Origin: a virus
Lineage: Duplodnaviria > Heunggongvirae > Uroviricota > Caudoviricetes
Reading direction: 5' to 3' (one strand)
DNA length: 61,071 nucleotides
Virus record (IMG/VR): IMGVR_UViG_2778261463_000006
Coordinates: 1-61,071 of that record
Shown here one piece after another: positions 17,783-23,598 of this stretch. A model generated the notes under the pieces. It was not told the DNA's origin, did not search any database, and saw only the letters and a program-made list of their open reading frames with translations. The translations under genes were made by a program, and so were the position numbers. Each line of letters starts with the position of its first letter. The first letter of the stretch is position 1.

Positions 17783-18259
17783 TTATTTTGCGCGCTTCAG
17801 GCAGCCATCTTCAGGTGCCGCGTTGAAAAGCTCTGCGGCCTTACGTAGCGTAAATGTTGCGATTTTTTTTCCGTCTACGTATGCATCGAATGTTTTAACT
17901 TCCATATCAGGGGTATCTGACCAAAAACCATACCAGTAACTATCACCCACAGAGGAACCGATAGAACTGATAGGATATTCATCATCACCAACTTTCAGCG
18001 TTATTTGTTCTTTTTTAGCATCAAATGACTCACCGCCAGGTTCTGTTTTCATGAGAGTGAGTAGTCGTGTTCCTACTTGATTGGGATCCGTATTATTAAA
18101 TCCAACATCGCACTCAAATGTAAGCGTATAATTATCTTTGCTGGAAACAGCATAAGAACGAACACCATGAGTCTCGCCGGTTGACCATTTGCTTACATTT
18201 GCCATTGATGAAAATGGAGTAAGCAAAGCAAGAATTAGAAAAAATCGTTTGATGCGCAT
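17783..18259 (-). CDS. Secreted/periplasmic protein (158 aa) with N-terminal signal peptide
   Basis: MRIKRFFLILALLTPFSSMA signal-like N-terminus. Confidence 0.55.
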   Translation of the reverse strand: MRIKRFFLILALLTPFSSMANVSKWSTGETHGVRSYAVSSKDNYTLTFECDVGFNNTDPNQVGTRLLTLMKTEPGGESFDAKKEQITLKVGDDEYPISSIGSSVGDSYWYGFWSDTPDMEVKTFDAYVDGKKIATFTLRKAAELFNAAPEDGCLKRAK

Positions 18260-18310
18260 TAATTTATCTCCTTTGGATATTAATATTTTAATTAGTTAAC
18301 CACCATATAT

Positions 18311-18958
18311 TCACCATTCATAGGGTAAATTAAGCGCTTTTAAACCTTGCTGGAAAGTATTAAGAGAGCCGTTTTTTTGTTGTTCCATTTTTTCGCGTGC
18401 AGCTTTCTCATACTGCTCCATCCGTTGGTTATACTCTTGCAATTCCTCCGGGGAGAGGTTTCCCATTGGGGAGTTTGTACCCGGCCCCCTGGCCCGTTCT
18501 TCAAGCGTACCCTGAACGTTTTGATGGCGCATTCCCGGGGCGTTTCTGATTGAATCAATGCCATTTCTTCCAACGTCTTCTTTATTAACGGCATTGCTCG
18601 CCACCAGTACGCCCCAGCTAGGGATAGCAAAATCAGGAGCGGTTTCGCATGCCTTTACCATATAATCGAAAGAGCTTCGATTGATCTCGTTTGCGTCGGG
18701 ATTTAATAGGCGAGAATATTGATATTTAGCATTTTCGTTGGTTGCGACTTTATACAGTTCTTGCTGCACCATCGCTTCAGAAAGTTTAAGGCGTTTCATA
18801 TCTGATAGTAACTTCTTGCGCATGGATTCGTCTTGACTGACAGCAAAACCGTAAACGTGCCCAAGGTATTTCGTATAATCGGTACAAATCTCCTTTACGC
18901 TTGATGCTGCATTAACAGTCCCAGCCATAAATAATAACGGTAGTAATAGTTTTCTCAT
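18311..18958 (-). CDS. Secreted protein, candidate Sim-like superinfection-exclusion protein (about 215 aa from MRKLLL start)
   Basis: Signal peptide MRKLLLPLLFMAGTVNAAS; C-terminal segment GMRHQNVQGTLEERARGPGT matches Sit segment GMRREVVQGTLEERARGKGT; located beside immI region. Confidence 0.55.
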   Translation of the reverse strand: MRKLLLPLLFMAGTVNAASSVKEICTDYTKYLGHVYGFAVSQDESMRKKLLSDMKRLKLSEAMVQQELYKVATNENAKYQYSRLLNPDANEINRSSFDYMVKACETAPDFAIPSWGVLVASNAVNKEDVGRNGIDSIRNAPGMRHQNVQGTLEERARGPGTNSPMGNLSPEELQEYNQRMEQYEKAAREKMEQQKNGSLNTFQQGLKALNLPYEW

Positions 18959-19054
18959 TATAACCTCACCTGCCTTATAACTCATTTAGGGTACATATTT
19001 TCGCCTTTAAAAAAAAGAGGTTATTAGATCCAACTGTGTATTTATTAAGCATAT

Positions 19055-19071
19055 AATGCTCTAATAAATTT
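19055..19071 (+). promoter_or_regulatory. C1 repressor operator-like site upstream of c4-icd-ant (Op51-like)
   Basis: AATGCTCTAATAAATTT, 16/17 match to recalled P1 C1 operator consensus ATTGCTCTAATAAATTT. Confidence 0.6.
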
Positions 19072-19239
19072 GTATTTTTAAGTCGCGAATGCTATCTTTT
19101 CGCATCATATTGACCTTTTAATCGTTCAGGCTTATAGTTCCGCCGTCGTAGCAAATTCTGCGACCGGGTTTAGCAGCCTGAATGATTGTGCGGACAGCCG
19201 CAGATATCCGATATTGCGGTATTTTTGTGTCCGTAAAAC

Positions 19240-19330
19240 CGCGTTACGCCCAAATTATGGTGGGGCGTGATGGGGAGGCTTCGGCCTGCTGGTTTCACAA
19301 TCGCCAGTCTGCTAACCCCGTCACGTCCTG
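19240..19330 (+). ncRNA. c4: c4-like antisense RNA of immunity region immI (boundaries approximate)
   Basis: Contains cacaatc (19296-19302) and ctgctaa (19309-19315), complementary to direct repeats gtttagcagc/tgattgtg at 19168-19190 and 19337-19374; the latter abuts the icd Shine-Dalgarno. Confidence 0.45.
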
Positions 19331-19385
19331 CCACCTGTTTAGCAGCGGGTAGCAGGTTGTTAAACCTGATTGTGAGGCCGTAACT

Positions 19386-19607
19386 ATGGTTAATGCCAAT
19401 CCTTGCGCACGCCAAGAATTCATCTGGCGTTTCTATTCCTGTAAAAAACACCACTATCACTTCGTTATCGCAGCAACAGAAGACGAAGCACGCTCTCAAT
19501 TGCCTGATGGCCCCTGCATTTTTACTGCCCGTTTTTCAACTAACTCGCGCAATTCACTTAGTTACTGGAACCTCCCCTTCTCTGCCGACGTTCAGGGGGG
19601 TTTATGA
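19386..19607 (+). CDS. icd: Icd-like small protein (73 aa) translationally coupled to ant
   Basis: 73-aa ORF whose stop overlaps ant start (ATGA); target repeats of c4 cover its RBS. Confidence 0.6.
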   Translation: MVNANPCARQEFIWRFYSCKKHHYHFVIAATEDEARSQLPDGPCIFTARFSTNSRNSLSYWNLPFSADVQGGL

Positions 19608-20647
19608 AAAAACCTCTCGTCACCCGTAATGACATAGCCGAAGCGATCGCCCTGCATACTGCCTGTATGTCGACACGGGAGATCCCCGGCGCAATTGCCA
19701 ACTATTTCATGATAACCAGACGTTTTTATACCCGAACAGATAAGGCTGTGATCAACAAGCTACTGATAGCCGAGATCAGGGATTATTTGATTGAACAAGG
19801 ACGTCTACGTTACGCAACAGTGGCAGCAGAAATGAGAAAGGAGGCACATAGAATGACCGGTAATAATTTAAATGTTGAAAAACCAGCACCTGTTGCTTCA
19901 GCTACGCCAGCACCAGCCGTGAATATCATCCCCAACACCGGAGACACAATCGACAGCCTGACACTGTTAAAGATGGTCAATGAAGCGCGTAAGTTATGTG
20001 GGGAACCAGAGGTTCGGAACAACAAATTCATCGAAAAAATACTCGACGAATTAGAAGGTGAGGACGGTTACACAAAAAGTGCAACCGTGCCGCCAGGTGG
20101 CGGTACGCCTATGGTTGTCATAACCATGACCTACAAACAAGCCCTGCGAGTCGCCGCACGCGAATCAAAAGCCGTCCGCCGTTCGCTGATCGACAAACTG
20201 GAAGAATTGCAGCAGGCAAACTCCCCTGCCCCATCGATCCCCCAAACATTACCAGAAGCTCTACGCCTGGCTGCCGAGTTGGCAGAACAGAAAATGCAGC
20301 TGGAACAACAGCTGGTGGCCGCAGCCCCTAAAGTCGATTTTGCCGACCGGGTATCAGTGGCCAATGGAATCCTGATCGGGAACTTTGCAAAGGTCGTTGG
20401 ACTTAAGCAAAACGCCCTTTTCTCATGGTTGCGCCAGAACGGCATTCTCATGGCTTTTGGTGCGCGCAAAAACGTACCGCGCCAGCAGTACATTAACGCC
20501 GGGTATTTCACGGTGAAAGAAGTGGTGCTGGATGATGAAAATGGCTACCAGATACGGCTGACGCCCCAATTAACGGGTAAAGGCCAGCAGTGGTTAACTC
20601 GCAAGCTACTTGATGCTGGTTTGTTAAAACCAGTAGCAATAGGTTAA
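19604..20647 (+). CDS. ant: Antirepressor Ant (347 aa) with KilA-C/ANT-type C-terminal domain
   Basis: C-terminal ~150 aa paralogous to KilA C-terminus (LPEALRLAAELAEQK...TGKGQQWL...LLDAG). Confidence 0.75.
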   Translation: MKKPLVTRNDIAEAIALHTACMSTREIPGAIANYFMITRRFYTRTDKAVINKLLIAEIRDYLIEQGRLRYATVAAEMRKEAHRMTGNNLNVEKPAPVASATPAPAVNIIPNTGDTIDSLTLLKMVNEARKLCGEPEVRNNKFIEKILDELEGEDGYTKSATVPPGGGTPMVVITMTYKQALRVAARESKAVRRSLIDKLEELQQANSPAPSIPQTLPEALRLAAELAEQKMQLEQQLVAAAPKVDFADRVSVANGILIGNFAKVVGLKQNALFSWLRQNGILMAFGARKNVPRQQYINAGYFTVKEVVLDDENGYQIRLTPQLTGKGQQWLTRKLLDAGLLKPVAIG

Positions 20648-20725: not shown

Positions 20726-20742
20726 TTTGCTCTAATAAATTT
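20726..20742 (+). promoter_or_regulatory. C1 operator-like site upstream of kilA (Op53-like)
   Basis: TTTGCTCTAATAAATTT, 16/17 to consensus. Confidence 0.65.
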
Positions 20743-22783: not shown

Positions 22784-22965
22784 TACACCCGCTGCGGTGT
22801 GCTTGAGGCTATCTGCTTCAGGCATTCCCCGAAAAGCAGATAGAAGAAAGCCCCAGTAAACATTATGCGTCCCGCACAACGCTTAACATTAACCGGGGCC
22901 ATACCTATGCTTAGCATACGTAGATTAACCCTCTCCCCTTTTAAGGAGCAAGGAATTTTTTACTG

Positions 22966-23598
22966 CTATGCCGCCTTTCCAGTTATGGATTCTGCGACAA
23001 GAACAACCCCATGCTTACTTCGATCCGGATGTTCACTCCATATCTCGGATTCAGGAATACTTTTCCCGTCATAGCAAACACGTTCGCCGTCAAACGGGTA
23101 ATACTGAGCAGCATCGGTGTCGAGGATAAACACTTTTAGCTCGGAAGAGCGACGGGCGATATGTTGCCAAAGAGCTTTTCCACCTTCGTATTGCTCATTA
23201 TCACTGAGCAAAACAACACCAGCTTTTGAGGCTACGGTTTCGTAAACAAAAGTAGCTAAACCGACATCCCGGACAGTTCCATCAACCACGATACCTTCAA
23301 TCTGGCCAACATCGCTATCCTCCCAGAACTTCCTTACCAGTACGCCTTCAAGCTGCGGGCGACGTTGAAGTTCAAGAGTAGCGACAACCTTATGCCGCAT
23401 ATCACCATCGATAACAGAAGGCGCAGCCTCTATTACAGCTGCAAATGGGGTTTTGGAATCCCATATAACCTGGTAAAGCACACCCTGGATGGTAACTCCG
23501 TCCAGGATCGAAAATCGACGAGCGACAGTACCCGGGGAGTACGACATTGGAATCACAGCCATTTTAGAGTCCCCCTTTAACAGTACAGGCACAAACAT
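22966..23598 (-). CDS. Hypothetical protein (about 198-210 aa)
   Basis: Clean ORF; C1 operator-like site in its upstream region. Confidence 0.5.
   Translation of the reverse strand: MFVPVLLKGDSKMAVIPMSYSPGTVARRFSILDGVTIQGVLYQVIWDSKTPFAAVIEAAPSVIDGDMRHKVVATLELQRRPQLEGVLVRKFWEDSDVGQIEGIVVDGTVRDVGLATFVYETVASKAGVVLLSDNEQYEGGKALWQHIARRSSELKVFILDTDAAQYYPFDGERVCYDGKSIPESEIWSEHPDRSKHGVVLVAESITGKAA

What the first reader, a model, noticed from the sequence alone, without database searches (positions are those of the whole stretch)
19168..19386. c4-type antisense circuit is readable in the sequence
Direct repeats gtttagcagc / tgattgtg occur at 19168-19190 and again at 19337-19374, the second copy ending at the icd Shine-Dalgarno (GAGG 19374-19377). 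Between them, cacaatc (19296-19302) and ctgctaa (19309-19315) are complementary to the repeats in antiparallel order. This matches the P1 model in which c4 RNA occludes the icd RBS and thereby blocks coupled ant expression.
Basis: partly seen in the sequence, partly recalled or inferred. Interest (0 to 1): 0.45.

Follow-up and report, generated by a model that had tools for sequence, protein, structure and literature searches.

The report
P7-type c4 antisense immunity circuit
This is the well-known c4 antisense-RNA switch of phage P1/P7, here in its exact P7 version, which keeps the phage's antirepressor silent by covering the ribosome-binding site of the upstream gene icd; it is real and intact, but ordinary.

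Summary

- **Identity.** Window 19055-20647 is the immI operon of a P1-like phage-plasmid. The c4 RNA (19259-19335), both target sets (a1/b1 and a2/b2) and Icd are 100% identical to phage P7. P1 differs only by matched changes in all three copies of each box.
- **Database and fold.** Rfam places C4 at 69.6 bits (cut-off 45) and c4-a1b1 at 55.5 bits (cut-off 46.7). The 77-nt RNA folds at -45.3 kcal/mol (z = -5.9), with a' and b' unpaired.
- **Target site.** The 9-nt b' loop is complementary to 19368-19376, which includes GAG of the icd Shine-Dalgarno. icd overlaps ant1 by ATGA.
- **Chance.** The two-box motif occurs 3 times in the window against 0.03 expected.
- **Relatives.** In 86 related loci the boxes fall into 8 self-consistent haplotypes (2 a-types x 5 b-types). 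All four pairings are perfect in 85 of the 86.
- **Not testable here.** RNase P processing, Rho-dependent polarity and trans repression rest on published P1/P7 work.

Verdict: already known, low interest. Two side points came up. The population carries more c4 specificities than the textbook P1/P7 pair. The a1b1 leader resembles Salmonella IsrK.

The parts
19055..19071 (+). C1 repressor operator Op(c4), formerly Op51: AATGCTCTAATAAATTT
   Evidence: 16/17 match to the C1 operator consensus. Same alignment columns as the annotated operator in P7 and P1. Nine such sites in the window against 0.26 expected.
19069..19098 (+). Promoter P2c4 (formerly P51a), overlapped by the operator: -35 TTTGTAT at 19069-19075, -10 TATCTT at 19093-19098
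   Evidence: Coordinates transferred from the P1 annotation through alignment A1; this stretch is identical to P1. Not independently called by the promoter scan.
19110..19138 (+). Promoter P1c4 (formerly P51b): TTGACC, 17 nt spacer, TATAGT
   Evidence: Promoter scan gives 10/12 matches. Same columns as the annotated P1 promoter.
19145..19190 (+). Precursor leader carrying the upstream target copy: hairpin 19145-19164, second hairpin displaying a1 (core 19170-19176, TTAGCAG) in its loop, then b1 (core 19184-19190, GATTGTG)
   Evidence: Rfam c4-a1b1 RF03163 at 19132-19184, 55.5 bits against cut-off 46.7. P1 annotation of a1 and b1. Covariation with a'/b': 100% of cells paired, 8/14 pairs changed on both sides.
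19197..19229 (+). Hairpin followed by UAUUUUUGUG between b1 and c4; a terminator-like element homologous to the IsrK terminator
   Evidence: Fold -8.9 kcal/mol, z = -2.0. Rfam isrK RF01394 over 19145-19226 at 43.7 bits, below its cut-off of 50. Nearly invariant in 34 distinct relatives. Not called by the terminator scan.
19259..19335 (+). c4 antisense RNA, 77 nt, identical to P7 c4. 17-bp terminal stem; b' (19296-19302) in a 9-nt hairpin loop; a' (19309-19315) in the single-stranded junction
   Evidence: Rfam C4 RF01695 at 69.6 bits against cut-off 45. Annotation transfer from P7 and P1 misc_RNA features. MFE -45.3 kcal/mol, z = -5.87, 0/200 shuffles as good. Unpaired probability 0.88-0.99 at a' and b'.
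19337..19346 (+). Target a2 (core TTAGCAG, 19339-19345) in the icd leader
   Evidence: Perfect complement of a'. P1 annotation 'target site a2'. Covaries with a' in relatives.
19367..19377 (+). Target b2 (core GATTGTG, 19368-19374) fused to the icd Shine-Dalgarno GAGG (19374-19377)
   Evidence: Perfect complement of b'. Loop-segment duplex of -14.3 kcal/mol extending over the Shine-Dalgarno. P1 annotation 'target site b2'. 6 of 7 pairs covary.
19386..19607 (+). icd, 73 aa; cell-division inhibitor and coupling ORF for ant
   Evidence: 73/73 identical to P7 Icd, 71/73 to P1 Icd. ORF list. + strand C/G ratio about 2 across 19400-19560, i.e. rut-like composition.
19604..20647 (+). ant1, 347 aa; the start codon overlaps the icd stop as ATGA. 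In-frame ant2 start at 19853 behind AAGGAGG
   Evidence: Pfam ANT/KilAC PF03374, E = 1.3e-30. 328/347 identical to P1 Ant1 and 319/348 to P7 Ant1; in-frame start list. ATGA overlap read.

Best explanation
Window 19055-20647 is the immI immunity operon of a P1-like phage-plasmid, carrying the P7 specificity. Proposed mechanism, step by step:
1. One transcript runs from the C1-controlled promoters (P51a/P51b, operator at 19055-19071) through a leader (a1, b1), the c4 RNA, a second leader (a2, b2), icd and ant1/ant2.
2. c4 is cut out of this transcript as a 77-nt hairpin RNA (19259-19335).
3. Two unpaired segments of c4, b' in a 9-nt loop and a' in the junction, pair in trans with a2 and b2 just upstream of icd.
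4. Because b2 runs into the icd Shine-Dalgarno, pairing blocks icd translation.
5. ant1 overlaps the icd stop (ATGA) and depends on icd translation. Untranslated icd RNA is C-rich and G-poor and is prone to Rho termination. Antirepressor is therefore not made, and C1 repression and lysogeny are kept.
6. The short a/b boxes set the immunity specificity, so only a c4 RNA with matching boxes silences a given ant operon. This element would be immune to P7-type superinfection but not to P1-type.

Shown here: sequence identity, RNA family membership, fold, accessibility, complementarity, covariation, gene order and the ATGA overlap. Inferred from published P1/P7 work: RNase P processing, trans repression, Rho polarity and heteroimmunity.
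For: Rfam C4 at 69.6 bits and c4-a1b1 at 55.5 bits, both above cut-off. 99.7% identity to P7 over 19057-19650, with only two differences (19085, 19466), neither in a box or in c4. All six boxes are identical to P7, and P1 differs at matched positions in all three copies. The c4 fold is -45.3 kcal/mol, z = -5.87, with a' and b' unpaired at probability 0.88 or higher. The two-box motif occurs 3 times against 0.03 expected. Cognate duplexes are -9.0 and -14.3 kcal/mol, against -4.8 to -7.4 for P1/P7 cross pairs. Among 86 relatives there are 8 haplotypes, and 85 of the 86 are perfectly complementary in all four pairings. Formal covariation: 8/14 pairs changed on both sides, 99-100% of cells paired, 0/500 shuffles reaching the observed score, and slid registers at 26-52%. 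Variation among 34 distinct relatives is concentrated in the six boxes. Icd is 73/73 identical to P7, and Ant1 carries the ANT domain. The C1 operator and the P51b promoter are present. Literature: c4 is an antisense RNA that blocks ant synthesis at the ribosome-binding site and underlies P1/P7 heteroimmunity (PMC12197685; PMC8198154; PMC6906374). C4 RNA is an RNase P substrate (PMC5499578).
Against: There is no expression data for this particular element, so processing, trans action and Rho polarity are carried over from P1/P7 experiments. RNAcofold predicts no intermolecular pairs: the dimer energy of -60.0 equals the sum of the monomers. This is expected, because loop-to-strand kissing contacts cannot be represented in that model, but it means the duplex energies are local estimates only. 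The role of a1/b1 is still only 'putative' in the P1 record. Ant1 is mosaic relative to both P1 and P7, so downstream behaviour could differ in detail.
Confidence: 0.96

Rival explanations
1. The three copies of the bipartite motif (two direct, one inverted) are DNA binding sites for a sequence-specific protein. On this view their concerted change in relatives reflects co-evolution with that protein, not RNA-RNA pairing.
For: Concerted change of a DNA motif present in direct and inverted copies would produce the same 'complementarity-preserving' pattern seen. No G-U pairs are seen in the 85 consistent loci that would single out RNA pairing.
Against: The spacing between the two boxes is 7 nt in a1-b1, 6 nt in c4 and 22 nt in a2-b2, which is incompatible with a rigid bipartite protein site. 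The inverted copy sits exactly in the two unpaired segments of a very stable RNA fold (z = -5.9) that belongs to a curated RNA family. The only protein encoded in the module upstream of ant, Icd, is 95-100% identical across all haplotypes, so no co-varying specificity protein is present. Published genetics identify c4 as an RNA (Citron and Schuster 1990, cited in PMC12197685).
Confidence: 0.01
2. c4 is a small protein repressor, as first proposed in the 1980s, encoded by one of the ORFs overlapping the region (19182-19352, 56 aa, or 19267-19383, 38 aa).
For: Both ORFs are open in the window. An old GenBank record (X15639) still annotates c4 as a CDS.
Against: The 56-aa ORF is frameshifted in P1 and L003 and carries an internal stop in L004. 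The 38-aa ORF is frameshifted in L003, L040 and D6. Substitutions follow base-pairing rather than codon structure.
Confidence: 0.01
3. The circuit is present as sequence but is not operating in this element, for example because the prophage is defective or the module is a silent remnant.
For: Nothing in the window speaks to expression. P1-like plasmids often carry deletions and insertions around immI (PMC6906374).
Against: Every component is intact and essentially identical to functional P7. The flanking kilA, repL, C1 operators and tRNAs are all present. The haplotype is the commonest in the population sample, 30 of 86 loci.
Confidence: 0.03

Closest known systems
Phage P7 immI (c4-icd-ant1/2), GenBank AF503408
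   Same: 594 of the 651 bases compared (19057-19650) are 99.7% identical. c4, a1, b1, a2, b2 and Icd are all identical, and gene order, operator and promoters are the same.
   Different: Left of the C1 operator the sequence switches away from P7. The neighbouring cargo (two minus-strand ORFs, 17783-18985) is neither P7 upf50.0/50.5 nor P1 simABC; it matches phage vB_EcoM-Ro157c2YLVW. Ant1 is only 319/348 identical to P7 Ant1.
Phage P1 immI (c4-icd-ant1/2), GenBank AF234172/AF234173
   Same: Same architecture, annotated in full: Oc4, P2c4, P1c4, a1, b1, c4, a2, b2, icd, ant1/ant2. 96% nucleotide identity.
   Different: P1 has TTGACAG / GTTAGTG boxes where the window has TTAGCAG / GATTGTG, in all three copies. 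Predicted cross duplexes are 2-9 kcal/mol weaker than cognate ones. This is the classical basis of P1/P7 heteroimmunity.
Satellite phage P4 immunity: CI RNA with seqA / seqB / seqC
   Same: A processed, RNase P-dependent hairpin RNA cut from the leader of the operon it controls, with complementary sequences both upstream and downstream of itself (PMC4825925; PMC5499578).
   Different: As described in PMC4825925, P4 CI RNA causes premature transcription termination, not occlusion of a ribosome-binding site. There is no icd/ant module. No P4 sequence was examined here.
Salmonella Gifsy-1 IsrK / orf45 / anrP locus (Rfam isrK RF01394)
   Same: A leader RNA with two hairpins and a terminator, followed by a processed ~80-nt RNA, a short coupling ORF and an antirepressor translated by coupling (PMC4825925). 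In a related phage fragment an isrK hit above cut-off overlaps c4-a1b1 and lies just 5' of a strong C4 hit.
   Different: The window scores only 43.7 bits against the isrK cut-off of 50. In Gifsy-1 the short leader RNA is an activator acting in trans. No such role has been shown for the P1/P7 leader.

Membership tests
C4 antisense RNA (Rfam RF01695; P1/P7 c4) | Match to the family covariance model at or above the curated gathering score | tested here: met
   69.6 bits against a cut-off of 45, full-length model match 1-87, at 19253-19338.
C4 antisense RNA (Rfam RF01695; P1/P7 c4) | About 77 nt, long terminal stem enclosing two small hairpins, with the recognition segments a' and b' unpaired | tested here: met
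   MFE -45.3 kcal/mol, z = -5.87. Unpaired probabilities are 0.91-0.99 for b' and 0.88-0.99 for a'.
P1/P7 immI circuit | a' and b' complementary to a2 and b2 upstream of icd, with b2 abutting the icd Shine-Dalgarno | tested here: met
   Perfect 7-mers. The b' loop pairs through 19376 inside GAGG. Same columns as the P1 annotated sites.
P1/P7 immI circuit | Second target copy a1/b1 in the leader upstream of c4 (Rfam c4-a1b1 RF03163) | tested here: met
   55.5 bits against a cut-off of 46.7 at 19132-19184.
P1/P7 immI circuit | Complementarity maintained by compensatory change in relatives | tested here: met
   8 haplotypes, 85 of 86 loci perfect. 8/14 pairs changed on both sides in each pairing, 99-100% of cells paired, slid controls 26-52%.
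P1/P7 immI circuit | Operon c4-icd-ant1/ant2 under a C1 operator, with icd and ant1 translationally coupled | tested here: met
   Operator at 19055-19071, 16/17 match. P51b promoter. Icd 73/73 identical to P7. ATGA overlap at 19604-19607. ANT domain in Ant1.
P1/P7 immI circuit | c4 matured from the operon transcript by RNase P to a 77-nt RNA | not testable with these tools
   Known for P1/P7 (Hartmann et al. 1995, cited in PMC5499578). Here only the identical sequence is shown.
P1/P7 immI circuit | c4 represses icd/ant in trans; ant shut-off involves Rho-dependent polarity | not testable with these tools
   From the literature (PMC12197685; Biere et al. 1992, from my own knowledge). The only supporting sequence feature is the C-rich, G-poor icd RNA.
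P7 immunity specificity (as opposed to P1) | Boxes TTAGCAG / GATTGTG in a1-b1, a'-b' and a2-b2 | tested here: met
   All six boxes identical to P7 and different from P1.
isrK Hfq-binding RNA (Rfam RF01394) | Match at or above the gathering score of 50 bits | tested here: not met
   43.7 bits at 19145-19226. I do not file this as an isrK member; the resemblance is noted as probable homology of the leader.

The most novel reading that the evidence does not exclude
The upstream copy a1/b1 may not be a passive duplicate. The leader 19145-19226 ends in a hairpin plus U-run that is homologous to the terminator of Salmonella IsrK. It could be released as a short IsrK-like RNA that displays a1 in a loop and b1 single-stranded. 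Such an RNA would titrate c4 as an anti-antisense decoy, making immI a three-RNA switch in which the ratio of terminated leader to read-through sets how much free c4 is available to silence icd/ant.
Probability: 0.2. Interest if true: 0.5.

Novelty: already known. Interest (0 to 1): 0.12.

Why it matters
For this window it matters mainly as annotation. It fixes the element as a P1-like phage-plasmid with P7-type secondary immunity, and it gives exact coordinates for c4, its targets and the control signals. More generally, the survey of relatives shows that this short two-box address is the most variable part of an otherwise highly conserved module. It exists in at least eight internally consistent versions whose predicted cross-pairing is weak. 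If these behave like P1 and P7, they define many mutually heteroimmune groups among the P1-like plasmids that spread resistance genes in E. coli and Salmonella. That would be useful for typing these plasmids and for predicting which can coexist or exclude each other.

Tried and rejected
- Full-length RNAduplex of c4 against the target regions gave long, meaningless duplexes (-39 to -43 kcal/mol) because it opens the c4 stem. I replaced it with duplexes of the unpaired segments only.
- RNAcofold of c4 plus the icd leader gave no intermolecular pairs; the energy equalled the sum of the monomers. That model cannot represent a loop-to-strand kissing contact, so this is not evidence against pairing.
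- The genome-contig scan with Icd returned only 4 loci. One of them (L006, Phycisphaerae, 46% over 38 aa) has no c4-like sequence and was discarded.
- The 54-nt matches (83-84% identity) in Stx2 phages and mEp460 lie inside an antirepressor/Rha coding sequence and were set aside as irrelevant.
- A permissive Rfam scan found no + strand c4-a1b1 hit on the a2b2 copy. The other weak hits (mir-1231, SRP, COG3943) are chance.
- The terminator scan did not call the hairpin and U-run at 19197-19229. Its fold is only modestly better than shuffles (z = -2.0).
- The primary papers (Lobocka 2004; Citron and Schuster 1992) are not in the held library. Searches of that library found no description of more than two c4 specificities. 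Because the library is incomplete, this does not establish novelty.

Full report
**Observation.**
- GTTTAGCAGC lies at 19168-19177 and 19337-19346, and TGATTGTG at 19183-19190 and 19367-19374.
- Between them lie CACAATC (19296-19302) and CTGCTAA (19309-19315), which are the exact reverse complements of GATTGTG and TTAGCAG.
- GAGG at 19374-19377 precedes the ATG at 19386 by 8 nt.
- This is far beyond chance. The 10-mer occurs nowhere else in the 61 kb.
- The composite motif TTAGCAG-N(4-30)-GATTGTG occurs three times, the two targets on + and the c4 complement on -. Dinucleotide-preserving shuffles give 0.03.

**What it is.** Rfam places C4 antisense RNA (RF01695) at 19253-19338 with 69.6 bits (cut-off 45). 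It places the c4-a1b1 target motif (RF03163) at 19132-19184 with 55.5 bits (cut-off 46.7).
- Window 19057-19650 is 99.7% identical to phage P7 and 96% identical to P1. The only two differences from P7 are at 19085 and 19466, outside every functional box.
- The GenBank records of P1 and P7 annotate the whole circuit. Transferring their coordinates through a three-way alignment gives:
  - C1 operator 19055-19071;
  - promoter P51a at 19069-19098 and promoter P51b at 19110-19138, the latter also found by the promoter scan at 10/12 matches;
  - a1 19170-19176 and b1 19184-19190;
  - c4 RNA 19259-19335;
  - a2 19339-19345 and b2 19368-19375;
  - icd 19386-19607, ant1 19604-20647 and ant2 from 19853.
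- Icd is 73/73 identical to P7 Icd. Ant1 carries the ANT/KilAC domain.
- icd and ant1 overlap as ATGA.
- kilA, repL and a second C1 operator (20726-20742) follow, as in P1 and P7.
- The window as a whole is an ordinary P1-like phage-plasmid. 907 PLSDB plasmids match an 18-kb stretch around the locus, and 396 of them cover at least 80% of it.

**Structure and pairing.** A 77-nt stretch offset by one base from the annotated RNA (19258-19334) folds into a 17-bp terminal stem enclosing two small hairpins, at -45.3 kcal/mol and z = -5.87.
- b' sits in a 9-nt hairpin loop and a' in the single-stranded junction. Both have unpaired probabilities of 0.88-0.99.
- Using only these accessible segments, the cognate duplexes are -9.0 kcal/mol (a'/a2) and -14.3 kcal/mol (b'/b2). 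The latter extends through U-A and U-G pairs into the Shine-Dalgarno.
- P1/P7 cross combinations give only -4.8 to -7.4 kcal/mol.

**Which specificity.** In the three-way alignment the window equals P7 in all six boxes.
- P1 has TTGACAG in place of TTAGCAG, in a1, a' (as its complement) and a2.
- P1 has GTTAGTG in place of GATTGTG, in b1, b' and b2.
- This is the classical molecular basis of P1/P7 heteroimmunity (PMC12197685; PMC6906374). The element should therefore behave as P7-immune.

I collected 87 related loci: P7, P1, D6, 80 IMG/VR contigs and 4 genome contigs. One, L006, has no c4-like sequence and was dropped, leaving 86. I read the six boxes from each.
- They form eight internally consistent haplotypes built from two a-types and five b-types (GATTGTG, GTTAGTG, ACTTACG, ACGAATG, ACTTGTG).
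- All four pairings (a1/a', a2/a', b1/b', b2/b') are perfectly complementary in 85 of the 86 loci. The window's haplotype is the commonest, at 30 loci.
- On an alignment with one representative per haplotype, 8 of 14 pairs show changes on both sides, in both the c4 x a2b2 and the a1b1 x c4 pairings. 99.3% and 100% of cells are paired, 0 of 500 shuffles reach the observed covariation score, and slid registers give 26-52% paired.
- Across 34 distinct sequences, variation is concentrated in the six boxes while the rest of the module is nearly invariant.
- A predicted cross-reactivity matrix gives -11 to -12 kcal/mol on the diagonal and -2.8 to -7.0 off it.

**Mechanism.** The best-supported reading is the published one.
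- The operon transcript yields c4 after RNase P processing (PMC5499578).
- c4 pairs in trans with a2/b2 and covers the icd ribosome-binding site. Without icd translation, ant is not expressed (PMC8198154; PMC12197685).
- From my own knowledge (Biere, Citron and Schuster, Genes Dev 1992), the loss of ant expression is largely due to Rho-dependent termination in untranslated icd. Consistent with that, the icd RNA has a C/G ratio of about 2 over 19400-19560.
- Shown here: identity, family membership, fold, accessibility, complementarity, covariation and gene arrangement.
- Inferred: processing, trans action, polarity and immunity phenotype.

**Rivals.**
- A DNA-level protein-site explanation would produce the same concerted changes. 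It is contradicted by the variable box spacing (7, 6 and 22 nt), by the placement of the inverted copy in the loops of a stable conserved RNA, and by the absence of any co-varying protein (Icd is 95-100% identical across haplotypes).
- The old idea that c4 is a protein fails because both overlapping ORFs are frameshifted or stopped in natural relatives.
- I cannot exclude that the element is silent in its host, but nothing suggests it.

**Side observations.**
- *IsrK-like leader.* The leader 19145-19226 scores 43.7 bits on Rfam isrK, below its cut-off of 50. In a related phage fragment an isrK hit above cut-off (53.8 bits) overlaps c4-a1b1 and lies just 5' of a strong C4 hit. IsrK of Gifsy-1 is a terminated leader RNA that activates, in trans, a coupled short-ORF/antirepressor pair. 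Its authors compared it with P4 seqA and CI RNA but not with P1. The corresponding hairpin and U-run in the window (19197-19229) is conserved but thermodynamically modest. This suggests, without showing, that the a1/b1 leader could act as a c4 decoy.
- *Mismatched locus.* The single inconsistent locus, L011, has b1/b' of one type and b2 of another. That is what a single crossover between a2 and b2 would give.
- *Recombination junction.* The junction between P7-like and non-P7 sequence sits exactly at the C1 operator.

**Verdict.** It re-describes a textbook system that is present here in a form identical to phage P7. Novelty: already known. Interest: low.

Noticed in passing
L001-L087 (relatives); boxes corresponding to window 19170-19176, 19184-19190, 19296-19302, 19309-19315, 19339-19345, 19368-19374: P1-like elements carry at least 8 self-consistent c4 specificity haplotypes (2 a-types x 5 b-types), including all four P1/P7 a x b combinations. 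Because the boxes are interleaved (a1 b1 b' a' a2 b2), a hybrid needs at least two separate sequence patches, so self-consistency looks strongly selected. Predicted cross-pairing is weak (-2.8 to -7.0 against -11 to -12 kcal/mol). I found no description of more than two types in the held literature, but that library is incomplete.
   Followed up: partly
L011 (IMGVR_UViG_2565956613_000015), positions 11-241: This is the only locus of 86 where the boxes disagree. b1 and b' are ACGAATG-type, but b2 is P1-type GTTAGTG (one mismatch and three G-U in seven pairs). It is either a natural recombinant with weakened c4 control or an assembly chimera of two co-resident elements.
   Followed up: partly
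window 19145-19229; L088 501-709: The a1b1 leader plus the hairpin and U-run resembles Rfam isrK (43.7 bits in the window, 53.8 bits in L088, cut-off 50). In L088 the isrK hit overlaps c4-a1b1 and directly precedes C4. Rfam lists isrK outside the C4 clan CL00128, although the two models appear to describe the same leader element.
   Followed up: partly
window 17783-19056: The slot occupied by simABC in P1 and by upf50.0/upf50.5 in P7 holds different cargo here: two minus-strand ORFs of 158 and 224 aa, the latter with a signal-peptide-like N-terminus and no Pfam hit above its cut-off. The stretch is 98.5% identical to phage vB_EcoM-Ro157c2YLVW. Homology with P7 resumes exactly at the C1 operator (19055-19071), which suggests the operator is a recombination boundary.
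   Followed up: partly
window 22797-22970: Rfam sok antitoxin (RF01794) scores 72.9 bits (cut-off 59) just downstream of repL and a 108-aa ORF. This points to a hok/sok-type addiction module at the place where P1 has rlfA/rlfB.
   Followed up: no
window 19604-20647: Ant1 is mosaic: 328/347 identical to P1 Ant1 but only 319/348 to P7 Ant1. The adjacent c4, targets and Icd are pure P7 type. This implies recombination inside the operon, downstream of icd.
   Followed up: no
L020 and L051 (both from IMGVR_UViG_2703718869_000013, 97 kb): One contig carries two c4-icd modules with the same a-type but different b-types (ACTTGTG and GTTAGTG). Several reference phages (D6, RCS47, JL22, Ro157c2YLVW) also show two matching places. 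The window itself has only one C4 hit.
   Followed up: no
window 40139-42262: Four tRNA genes (Rfam tRNA, 35-75 bits), three in a tight cluster at 40139-40382 and one at 42190-42262. Nine C1-operator-like sites are spread through the window (0.26 expected), including a facing pair at 39454-39481.
   Followed up: no
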